Shown here: piece after piece, positions 16,975 to 17,527 of the stretch
How the letters are laid out: every line of letters starts with the position of its first letter
Numbering within the stretch: position 1 is the stretch's first letter
Assembly (NCBI RefSeq): GCF_041248615.1
Contig: NZ_CP158426.1
Length of the DNA: 64,000 bases
Direction: 5' to 3' (one strand)
Source: Escherichia coli
GTDB lineage: Bacteria > Pseudomonadota > Gammaproteobacteria > Enterobacterales > Enterobacteriaceae
The notes under the pieces: generated by a model
Told to the model about the DNA's origin: nothing
Seen by the model: only the letters and a program-made list of their open reading frames with translations
The model's database searches: none
Translations under genes and position numbers: made by a program

Positions 16975-17253
16975 TTAGTAGTAGTAAATTTGTGGATAAC
17001 AGTCCGGGAACCAGACGATTCCTTCTGGATCATCCCCCTGCATTACCCGATGACATTGGCGTCGATCATCTGCGCGACGGCGAAGCGTAGTATAGAGCCG
17101 CTTCCATTCATGATCGCCCGGTGTACTGTAGTTTACCCAACAATCCATTGAAGGGTGACGCCATTTACCTGTAAGTGTTGGGATCCCTGAATGATTATGT
17201 GGCTTCGCTTTACCATTACGATCCCTATCTTTACGCGTATTAAGCGTGGACAT
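16975..17253 (-). CDS. Hypothetical small basic protein (92 aa), island-encoded
   Basis: ORF MSTLNTRKDRDRNGKAKPHNHSG...DCYPQIYYY preceded by ACAGGAG ribosome-binding site about 8 nt upstream; no family recognised. Confidence 0.45.
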   Translation of the reverse strand: MSTLNTRKDRDRNGKAKPHNHSGIPTLTGKWRHPSMDCWVNYSTPGDHEWKRLYTTLRRRADDRRQCHRVMQGDDPEGIVWFPDCYPQIYYY

Positions 17254-17314
17254 TTTTAGTCTCCTGTTAAGAGTTCTAAAAATGTGCTTCCTTAAAATAG
17301 TTCATCATTTTCCC

Positions 17315-17527
17315 TTAATTCGCATAGCGTGCTTTTGCACGAATTTCCGATACGCGGGGACCATCATGATAGCGTCGATGCCCACACATCCAACAAGAAC
17401 AAATACAGGGAGTACGAAAGCAAATACCTGATGCTTTTTTGCTTCCATCGCCTGCAGTGCGATAACGGCAGCGGATTTTTTTTAATCGCGCCATATGATG
17501 GCGACGTTCAGCACGATTACGGGTCAT
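17315..17527 (-). CDS. Hypothetical small Cys/Arg-rich protein (70 aa), island-encoded
   Basis: ORF MTRNRAERRHHMARLKKIRCRYR...CICSCWMCGHRRYHDG... preceded by AGGAG about 7 nt upstream; that ribosome-binding site lies inside a perfect 7-bp inverted repeat (aactcct/aggagtt); no family recognised. Confidence 0.4.
   Translation of the reverse strand: MTRNRAERRHHMARLKKIRCRYRTAGDGSKKASGICFRTPCICSCWMCGHRRYHDGPRVSEIRAKARYAN

What the first reader, a model, noticed from the sequence alone, without database searches (positions are those of the whole stretch)
16975..17527. Two-gene cassette of small basic proteins (70 aa Cys/Arg-rich and 92 aa) with strong ribosome-binding sites, function unknown
Both minus-strand ORFs have canonical AGGAG ribosome-binding sites at correct spacing and sit in tandem downstream of repeat copy A. 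The 70-aa product is highly basic with a Cys cluster (CFRTPCICSCWMCGH) suggestive of metal binding or nucleic-acid binding. The 92-aa product is charged with a YYY C-terminus. Neither matches a family I recognise. Their position next to a toxin-antitoxin module in an island makes them candidates for a small toxin/regulator or phage-defence accessory pair, but this is speculation.
Basis: inference. Interest (0 to 1): 0.6.

Follow-up and report, generated by a model that had tools for sequence, protein, structure and literature searches.

The report
Hairpin-locked pair of tiny basic genes
The two small genes are real and form a conserved, mobile pair found across enterobacteria and their mobile elements, and each has its ribosome-binding region folded into a conserved RNA hairpin, so it is probably made only on some trigger; what the proteins do is unknown.

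Summary
Both ORFs exist as described and are genuine genes. The window is E. coli, fdhE–yiiF–yiiE side of a variable locus ending at fabY.

- **70-aa protein:** belongs to PHROG 4499 (phage T5 gene T5.055). It has an arginine-rich N-terminal helix and an invariant C-S-C-x-x-C-G motif.
- **92-aa protein:** founds an undescribed family (62 representative clusters, no Pfam, NCBIfam, PHROG or PDB match). Its hallmark is WWxRLxxTRPRR…DPDG…YYW.
- **The pair:** the same gene order recurs in at least nine genera, in chromosomal islets, AlpA/YfjJ islands, a P4-like satellite and plasmids. Each gene also occurs alone.
- **No tie to higBA:** another Escherichia lineage keeps the pair at this locus with different neighbours.
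- **New finding:** the "strong" AGGAG sites are masked. A two-tier hairpin holds the 70-aa gene's Shine-Dalgarno sequence in its 3' arm. A second hairpin pairs the 92-aa gene's AUG with an upstream CAU. Both persist across lineages with compensatory changes, and neither is in Rfam.

Best reading (inferred): two nucleic-acid-binding effectors or regulators of mobile elements, kept translationally silent until a trigger opens the hairpins. Function is untested.

The parts
17315..17527 (-). Gene 1: 70-aa protein, pI 10.9, with an arginine-rich N-terminal helix (RAERRHHxxRxK) and an invariant C-S-C-x-x-C-G motif. Member of PHROG 4499 / T5.055.
   Evidence: ORF. phrog_4499, E=1.2e-13. 446 phage and 152 plasmid records by tblastn. 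Family alignment A7. AlphaFold2 model with helix 5-25 but low confidence, pLDDT 61. pN/pS 0.39-0.54.
16975..17253 (-). Gene 2: 92-aa basic protein (pI 9.3) of an undescribed family. N-terminus MSxFNTRKDRDRxGKPxPH; C-terminal half WWxRLxxTRPRRxxxR...GxDPDGxxW...PxxYYW.
   Evidence: ORF. Exhaustive profile search: 62 representative clusters. Alignment A5. No Pfam, PHROG or PDB match. pN/pS 0.29-0.61.
17531..17575 (-). Leader hairpin of gene 1. The outer stem AGAACUCCU/AGGAGUUUU holds the Shine-Dalgarno sequence in its 3' arm. The inner stem is GCGGCA-UAG-UGCCGC. The hairpin ends 3 nt before the AUG.
   Evidence: Fold of -41 kcal/mol for the 126-nt context, z=-3.4. The same architecture occurs in 16 non-T5 lineages with different stem sequences. 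Mean z is -3.6, against control genes. Arms are lineage-specific: 92% and 86% paired versus 54% and 44% in shuffles, 0/500. No Rfam match.
17248..17291 (-). Leader hairpin of gene 2. CAUUUUUAG pairs with CUAAAAAUG, so the start codon lies in the 3' arm. GGA pairs with codon 2 (UCC). The Shine-Dalgarno AGGAG sits in the apical region, partly paired to CUCUU.
   Evidence: Fold. On 15 lineages (A11): 88% of cells paired versus 27-50% when slid; 30 double-change cells versus 13.2±2.6 (0/500 shuffles); 6 of 10 main-helix pairs show compensatory change. P(AUG paired) is ≥0.89 in 10 of 15.
16940..16966 (-). 12-bp hairpin 9 nt after the stop codon of gene 2. Probable 3' end or stabiliser of the cassette transcript. 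It is retained in E. coli strains that lack the genes.
   Evidence: Fold, z=-2.6. Conserved in the O178 and K-12-type alleles.
17533..17631 (.). Copy A of a 99-nt direct repeat, comprising the 3' end of nadS plus the gene-1 leader hairpin. Copy B lies at 19350-19448.
   Evidence: the repeat finder family D1, 89% identity. The covariance model hits copy B at 19347-19395(-) with 40.8 bits, and no ORF follows it.
17612..18214 (-). Context only: the upstream higB-like (103 aa) and nadS (HTH antitoxin, 96 aa) pair, with a promoter-like site at 18243-18216. It probably supplies the transcript in E. coli but is not part of the conserved module.
   Evidence: NadS NF041265 at 60.4 bits, cut-off 60. Promoter-like site, 10 of 12 matches. 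No sigma-70-like promoter is conserved next to either leader across lineages. The pair is kept without higBA in L079.

Best explanation
**Shown.**
- This is a self-contained, horizontally mobile two-gene module.
- Gene 1 encodes a 70-aa, very basic protein with an arginine-rich helix and a CxCxxC(+His) knuckle.
- Gene 2 encodes a 92-aa basic protein of a new family.
- Each gene's translation-initiation region is folded into its own conserved hairpin. The Shine-Dalgarno sequence is masked for gene 1 and the start codon for gene 2.
- No conserved promoter lies beside either leader. In E. coli the nearest promoter-like site is the one in front of higB.

**Inferred.**
- The genes are transcribed passively as part of longer mRNAs.
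- Both proteins bind nucleic acid, most likely structured RNA.
- They act as effectors or regulators in conflicts between a mobile element and its host, or between mobile elements.
- They are kept translationally off by default, probably because they are harmful in excess.
- They are made only when something melts or cuts the hairpins, such as heat, an RNase or helicase, or an incoming element's factor.
For: **Real, selected genes**
- Conserved order and motifs across at least nine genera.
- pN well below pS.
- Both ORFs are intact in the distant E. coli lineages examined.

**Module autonomy**
- 8 of 14 species loci that carry gene 2 have gene 1 directly upstream.
- The pair is retained while neighbours are swapped at the same Escherichia locus.
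- It occurs in AlpA/YfjJ islands next to dnd and DpdE/ZorD-like cargo, in a P4-like satellite, at a folD islet in Klebsiella oxytoca and on IncFIB plasmids.

**Masking hairpins**
-.
- Covariation for the gene-2 leader.
- z-scores, control genes and arm-shuffle tests for the gene-1 leader.
- G·U pairs occur only on the sense strand.
- No conserved sigma-70 promoter next to the leaders.

**Nucleic-acid binding**
- pI 9.3-11.6.
- Predicted Arg-rich helix at residues 5-25, invariant C43/C45/C48 and nearly invariant H11.
Against: - There are no functional data, and no homologue of known function.
- Structure models have low confidence (pLDDT 61 and 70), and Foldseek finds nothing.
- RNA binding, zinc binding and toxicity are all inferences from composition and motifs.
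- Each gene also occurs without the other: T5-like phages and Klebsiella plasmids for gene 1; L007, L008, L052 and IS-linked copies for gene 2. They may therefore not act together.
- T5-like phages have only a 5-bp Shine-Dalgarno hairpin, and L051 has none.
- About 77% of complete E. coli genomes lack the intact cassette, so it is dispensable.
Confidence: 0.45

Rival explanations
1. Safety-catched toxins. One or both products are growth-arresting effectors, and the hairpins play the role of the masked 5' UTRs of type I toxin mRNAs.
For: - Stable masking of the initiation regions, dG -17 to -36 kcal/mol.
- Mobile-element and defence-island context.
- Frequent loss or deletion alleles in E. coli.
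Against: - The proteins are hydrophilic and basic, not membrane peptides.
- No antisense RNA or promoter was detected.
- No antitoxin-like acidic partner is present.
- No PADLOC hit.
Confidence: 0.2
2. A Mu com-mom-like cascade. The gene-1 zinc protein binds the gene-2 leader and unmasks its start codon.
For: - A small Cys-motif protein is encoded directly upstream of a gene whose initiation region is locked in a hairpin.
- The order gene 1 then gene 2 is invariant wherever both are present.
Against: - Gene-2 homologues that lack gene 1 (L007, L008, L052, L070) carry the same AUG-masking hairpin.
- Gene 1 is itself masked.
- No Pfam family of any kind matches gene 1, so nothing links it by sequence to Com.
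Confidence: 0.12
3. The hairpins are not translational masks. They are transcription terminators or attenuators, RNase III or stability elements, or DNA-level palindromes.
For: - In E. coli the gene-1 hairpin is followed by UUUU.
- Several gene-2 hairpins are followed by GUUUUU.
- The gene-1 hairpin is duplicated without an ORF at 19347-19395.
Against: - The U-tract is not conserved; Klebsiella spallanzanii and Salmonella lack it.
- The fixed 1-11 nt distance to the AUG, and the consistent inclusion of the Shine-Dalgarno sequence or AUG in the 3' arm, point to translation.
- Gene-2 stems are AU-rich.
- G·U pairs argue for an RNA structure rather than a DNA one.
Confidence: 0.1
4. An accessory of the higB/nadS toxin-antitoxin module.
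For: - Same strand, immediately downstream, with no conserved promoter between them in E. coli.
- The same four-gene order in Klebsiella spallanzanii.
- An HTH_3 gene lies upstream in 5 of 23 loci.
Against: - The pair persists without higBA at the same locus and in most other lineages.
- higBA persists without the pair in E. coli deletion alleles.
Confidence: 0.03
5. Decaying, non-functional ORFs.
For: - Many frameshifted variants appear in protein databases.
- A ~390-bp deletion allele is common in E. coli.
- PGAP sometimes skips gene 1.
Against: - Deep conservation with purifying selection.
- The major E. coli clusters are intact, with 304 and 490 member sequences.
- The skipped ORF is intact.
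Confidence: 0.04

Closest known systems
PHROG 4499 / phage T5 gene T5.055 (hypothetical early-region protein)
   Same: Gene 1 matches the profile at E=1.2e-13 over residues 3-67. It shares RALRRHH…TPCICSCWMCG with T5.055 at about 50% identity.
   Different: The T5-like proteins are about 100 aa with an acidic C-terminal tail. They have no gene-2 partner and only a 5-bp hairpin over the Shine-Dalgarno sequence. The family has no known function or literature.
Phage Mu com-mom translational control (from general knowledge)
   Same: A small Cys-motif protein gene lies directly upstream of a gene whose initiation region is occluded by a hairpin.
   Different: There is no sequence match. Gene 1 is itself masked. 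The gene-2 hairpin is present where gene 1 is absent. Gene 2 is a 92-aa basic protein, not a DNA-modification enzyme.
Masked 5' leaders of type I toxin mRNAs (hok, tisB, zorO) and fold-back inhibition in IS10/IS200 (from general knowledge)
   Same: A stable leader structure sequesters the Shine-Dalgarno sequence or start codon of a small mobile-element gene, so that read-through transcripts are silent.
   Different: No antisense RNA was found. The products are hydrophilic and basic. No internal promoter would give an unmasked transcript.
Arginine-rich-motif proteins lambda N and HK022 Nun (from general knowledge)
   Same: A short N-terminal Arg-rich helix. Nun additionally binds zinc. The genes are prophage or phage borne and associated with hairpin RNAs.
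   Different: The resemblance is by eye only. There is no profile hit, and the hairpin loops are 3-5 nt with no conserved boxB-like loop.

Membership tests
PHROG 4499 (T5.055-like) | Significant match to the family profile over most of its length | tested here: met
   E=1.2e-13, protein residues 3-67 on profile positions 6-73 of 88.
PHROG 4499 (T5.055-like) | Shared core motifs with phage members | tested here: met
   RA.RR(H)H and C-S-C-x-x-C-G are invariant across 13 diverse members, including T5-like phages.
Type II toxin-antitoxin module (HigBA accessory or third component) | Consistent co-occurrence with the toxin-antitoxin genes | tested here: not met
   higBA is upstream only in E. coli and Klebsiella spallanzanii. 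The pair exists without it, and higBA exists without the pair.
Type I toxin-antitoxin | Toxin mRNA with a structurally masked ribosome-binding site | tested here: met
   Conserved hairpins mask the Shine-Dalgarno sequence (gene 1) and the AUG (gene 2).
Type I toxin-antitoxin | Small hydrophobic or membrane toxin, or a known nuclease toxin | tested here: not met
   Both products are hydrophilic, with pI 9.3-11.6 and no family match.
Type I toxin-antitoxin | Cis- or trans-encoded antisense RNA | tested here: inconclusive
   No Rfam hit and no promoter-like site on the opposite strand within the cassette. Transcript data are lacking.
Mu Com-type translational activator | Sequence or profile similarity to Com | tested here: not met
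   No Pfam family matches gene 1 or any of 13 family members at E≤0.001.
Mu Com-type translational activator | Downstream gene's initiation region occluded by a hairpin that the protein opens | tested here: inconclusive
   The hairpin is present and conserved, but it is also present where gene 1 is absent. Binding cannot be tested here.
Known anti-phage defence systems (PADLOC-DB) | Match to a defence-protein model | tested here: not met
   0 families for either protein at E≤0.1.
Described RNA families (Rfam 15) | Covariance-model match of either leader | tested here: not met
   No relevant match at E≤1 in the window or in six related loci.
Zinc-binding knuckle or finger | Four conserved metal ligands | tested here: inconclusive
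   C43, C45 and C48 are invariant and H11 is nearly invariant. Geometry is not resolved, since the model has pLDDT 61. Metal binding cannot be tested here.

The most novel reading that the evidence does not exclude
The pair is a previously undescribed, widely mobile 'locked' effector module. It consists of two new small RNA-binding proteins whose synthesis is gated by two new cis-regulatory RNA motifs. It would fire only on a specific insult, such as phage infection, entry into a new host, RNase or toxin activation, or temperature shift. Its role would be to arrest or reprogramme translation or transcription. That would make it a new kind of post-transcriptionally triggered exclusion or anti-defence switch.
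Probability: 0.25. Interest if true: 0.8.

Novelty: new variant of a known kind. Interest (0 to 1): 0.6.

Why it matters
- It turns two 'hypothetical proteins' into a defined, testable module: two uncharacterised protein families and two uncatalogued leader RNA motifs that covary across genera.
- It gives the first context for T5.055 / PHROG 4499, which is present in hundreds of T5-like phages and Klebsiella plasmids.
- The module sits at the border of variable, often defence-carrying cargo (dnd, DpdE/ZorD-like, higBA). It could therefore serve as a marker of such hotspots, or as a regulator in them.
- It shows that a textbook Shine-Dalgarno sequence can mislead when the RNA structure around it is ignored.

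Tried and rejected
**Family and structure searches that found nothing**
- Pfam, NCBIfam and PADLOC searches of both proteins and of both family alignments.
- PHROGs for ten gene-2 relatives.
- PDB sequence profiles: only noise, HJURP at E=0.02.
- AlphaFold2 gave low-confidence models, and Foldseek against the PDB gave no match.
- Annotation of recurrent upstream neighbours (a 227-241-aa protein and a DUF7706-like 194-aa protein): no family.

**Hypotheses tested and rejected**
- Are the two families homologous to each other? hhalign probability is 0.1%, so no.
- Is gene 2 a phage gene? tblastn with three members finds only one 'unverified' Salmonella contig that looks like island DNA.
- Fold-back model with a native promoter inside the hairpin: no conserved sigma-70-like site.
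- Intrinsic-terminator reading: the U-tract is not conserved.
- integron attC-like or REP-like reading: rejected by eye, because the arm ends do not fit the attC core sites.
- 'Only one hypothetical protein annotated' in some genomes suggested a frameshift. It is an annotation omission, and the ORF is intact.

**Methods that fell short**
- MAFFT with RNAalifold on the gene-1 leaders failed because the stems differ too much in sequence.
- A covariance model built from one subgroup recovered only that subgroup. I therefore used structure-anchored counts and shuffles instead.

**Literature.** Searches for the accessions, T5.055, phrog_4499, DUF7706 and yiiE/yiiF returned nothing relevant.

Full report
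**Where the window is.** The window is E. coli chromosome. fdoH, fdoI, fdhE, yiiF and yiiE lie on one side of the finding. A variable segment then runs to fabY. On the minus strand the order is:
- a promoter-like site at 18243-18216;
- a higB-like ORF at 17903-18214;
- nadS, an HTH antitoxin, at 17612-17902;
- the 70-aa ORF at 17315-17527;
- the 92-aa ORF at 16975-17253;
- a 12-bp hairpin at 16940-16966.

**Observation.** Both ORFs and their AGGAG motifs, each 7 nt from the ATG, are exactly as described. PGAP annotates them as hypothetical proteins WP_001590960.1 and WP_001306650.1. 'Repeat copy A' is a 99-nt direct repeat, 17533-17631 and 19350-19448, that brackets the toxin-antitoxin genes and an alpha/beta hydrolase.

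**Are they genes?** Yes.
- *Gene 1.* It matches PHROG 4499 at E=1.2e-13. By tblastn it matches 446 phage records, almost all T5-like Demerecviridae, where it is T5.055 in the tRNA/early region. It also matches 152 plasmid records.
- *Gene 2.* It has no Pfam, NCBIfam, PHROG or PDB match. An exhaustive profile search of 1.84 billion representatives finds 62 clusters that share WWxRLxxTRPRRxxxR…GxDPDGxxW…KPxxYYW.
- *Order.* Gene 1 then gene 2 recurs in Salmonella, next to a dnd cluster in an AlpA/YfjJ island, and on IncFIB plasmids. It also recurs in IMG/VR island-like contigs and in Klebsiella spallanzanii, K. oxytoca, Kosakonia, Atlantibacter, Edwardsiella, Mixta, Huaxiibacter and Citrobacter. 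In total, 8 of 14 species loci that carry gene 2 have gene 1 directly upstream.
- *Selection.* Between lineages pS is saturated (0.6-0.95) while pN is 0.23-0.49.
- *Integrity in E. coli.* The ORFs are intact in distant lineages. An apparent 'missing' gene 1 in some genomes is only an annotation omission.

**Population structure at the locus.**
- 1,269 of 5,426 complete E. coli genomes carry the full cassette.
- Many others (for example O178:H19) have a ~390-bp deletion. It fuses the first ~17 codons of gene 1 to the tail of gene 2, while higBA is kept.
- K-12-type strains retain only the last codons of gene 2 and the downstream hairpin.
- K. spallanzanii has the syntenic arrangement fabY, hydrolase, higB' (N-terminally shortened, 77 aa), nadS, 70 aa, 94 aa, yiiE-like, fdhE.
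- Another Escherichia lineage has fabY, three unrelated genes, 70 aa, 92 aa, fdhE.

The pair is therefore the stable unit, and higBA is replaceable. Elsewhere the pair sits beside AlpA/YfjJ backbones, a P4-like satellite (primase, Ogr/Delta), a DpdE/ZorD-like helicase, an HNH nuclease or dnd genes. Each gene can also occur alone:
- gene 1 in T5-like phages and Klebsiella plasmids;
- gene 2 in plasmid-like and prophage-like contigs;
- a 76-aa form of gene 2 inside a 2,285-bp unit shared with an IS3-family transposase in different flanks.

**Protein features.**
- *Gene 1.* pI is 10.9. A6, R8, R9, R14, C43, S44, C45, C48, G49 and E61 are invariant, and H11 is nearly invariant. The AlphaFold2 model has a long N-terminal helix (residues 5-25) but low confidence, pLDDT 61.
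- *Gene 2.* pI is 9.3. The only confident element in its model is a helix over the TRPRR region (residues 57-71), and overall pLDDT is 70.
- The two families are not detectably related.
- Foldseek and PDB searches are empty.
- Nucleic-acid and zinc binding are therefore inferences from composition and motifs.

**The masked initiation regions (new).** In the window, the gene-1 Shine-Dalgarno sequence is the 3' arm of a two-tier hairpin at 17531-17575. That hairpin is part of the 99-nt repeat.

Sixteen non-T5 lineages have the same architecture ending 1-11 nt before the AUG:
- an outer stem whose 3' arm carries GGAG or GAGG;
- an internal loop;
- a GC-rich inner stem;
- a 3-5-nt apical loop.

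The stem sequences differ between lineages, for example GCGGCA/UGCCGC, GGGGCA/UGCCCC, CGCGGUU/GACCGCG and GCGGGA/UCCCGC. G·U pairs occur on the sense strand.

| Measure, gene-1 leaders | Observed | Comparison |
|---|---|---|
| Mean z against dinucleotide shuffles | -3.6 (13 of 15 at or below -2.1) | – |
| Mean fold energy, kcal/mol | -24 | -14 in control genes, Mann-Whitney P=3e-6 |
| Inner arms paired | 92% | 54% after shuffling arms between lineages (0/500) |
| Outer arms paired | 86% | 44% after shuffling arms between lineages (0/500) |

The layout for the arm-shuffle test was fitted to each sequence's own fold, so the percentage paired is inflated. The shuffle test measures lineage specificity of the arms.

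For gene 2, a hairpin at 17248-17291 pairs CAU plus 6-7 variable bases with the complementary bases plus AUG. An upstream GGA pairs with codon 2. On a plain MAFFT alignment of 15 lineages:
- 88% of cells pair, against 27-50% when partners are slid;
- 30 double-change cells are seen, against 13.2±2.6 in shuffles (0/500);
- 6 of 10 main-helix pairs show compensatory change.

P(AUG paired) is at least 0.89 in 10 of 15 lineages. The short 76-83-aa subgroup masks the Shine-Dalgarno sequence instead.

Neither leader matches Rfam. No sigma-70-like promoter is conserved beside them, so the genes are probably read through from upstream promoters.

**Interpretation.** The best-supported model is a mobile pair of small nucleic-acid-binding proteins that is transcribed passively but kept translationally silent until the hairpins are opened. 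The trigger and the targets are unknown.

A Com/Mom-like cascade is weakened because solo gene-2 copies keep the same hairpin. A higBA accessory role is contradicted by the distribution. Decay is contradicted by conservation. A terminator reading is contradicted by the non-conserved U-tracts and the fixed register with the AUG.

**Verdict.** The finding is more interesting than stated: it comprises two uncharacterised protein families and two uncatalogued covarying leader RNA structures. Function remains to be tested.

Noticed in passing
window 17533-17631 and 19350-19448: A 99-nt direct repeat (89% identical) brackets nadS, higB and the hydrolase. Copy B carries an orphan copy of the gene-1 leader hairpin (40.8 bits with model R1) with no ORF after it. 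Copy B also marks where extra DNA, absent from the O178 and K-12 alleles, begins. This suggests recombination at this element.
   Followed up: partly
window 16794-17079 versus L002 2851-3139 and L003 2870-3072: The segment covering the 3' part of gene 2 and the DNA downstream of it is only 76-79% identical between allele types. Flanking DNA is 94-98% identical. The two haplotypes at this spot are therefore far older than the species' usual divergence, or one was imported.
   Followed up: partly
L053 5656-7940, L054 4620-6904, L055: A 76-aa gene-2 homologue travels in a 2,285-bp unit together with an IS3-family orfA/orfB, inserted in different chromosomal flanks. It may be an insertion sequence with a passenger gene.
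   Followed up: partly
L077 (NZ_CP094339.1) 1876-2088 and other RefSeq genomes: PGAP annotates the 70-aa ORF in some E. coli genomes and omits it in others, although the sequence is identical and intact.
   Followed up: yes
L004 (OR851001.1, 'Salmonella phage S.Kent 1-2-1', UNVERIFIED_ORG): This 3.6-kb 'phage' record carries the pair, an HNH nuclease and a gene shared with a Salmonella dnd/AlpA island (L006). It looks like bacterial island DNA rather than a phage genome.
   Followed up: partly
window 16178-16256 and 16617-16695; ORFs 15877-16134(-) and 16338-16583(-): yiiF and yiiE are paralogous CopG/RHH-type genes. Each is preceded by a copy of a 79-nt repeat (81% identical), which suggests a duplicated regulatory region.
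   Followed up: no
window 17903-18214(-): The HigB-like partner of NadS has no NCBIfam or PADLOC match. It hits only PHROG 5869 (unknown function), and PGAP calls it hypothetical. In Klebsiella spallanzanii it is N-terminally shorter (77 aa).
   Followed up: partly
window 19520-21364(-): A 614-aa ORF just beyond repeat copy B has no NCBIfam or PADLOC match. This segment is absent from the O178-type and K-12-type alleles examined (L002, L003).
   Followed up: no
L060 4953-5231 and 5170-5544 (Mixta sp.): Two gene-2 family ORFs lie in tandem after one gene-1 homologue.
   Followed up: no
L073 7985-9291 (Klebsiella oxytoca group), L075 4418-5213 (K. pneumoniae IncF plasmids): A 216-241-aa protein with no family match precedes gene 1 in five lineages. 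The K. pneumoniae plasmid examined (L075) keeps this protein and gene 1 but lacks gene 2. The three-gene form is very common in the K. oxytoca group (listed in 2,883 index blocks).
   Followed up: partly
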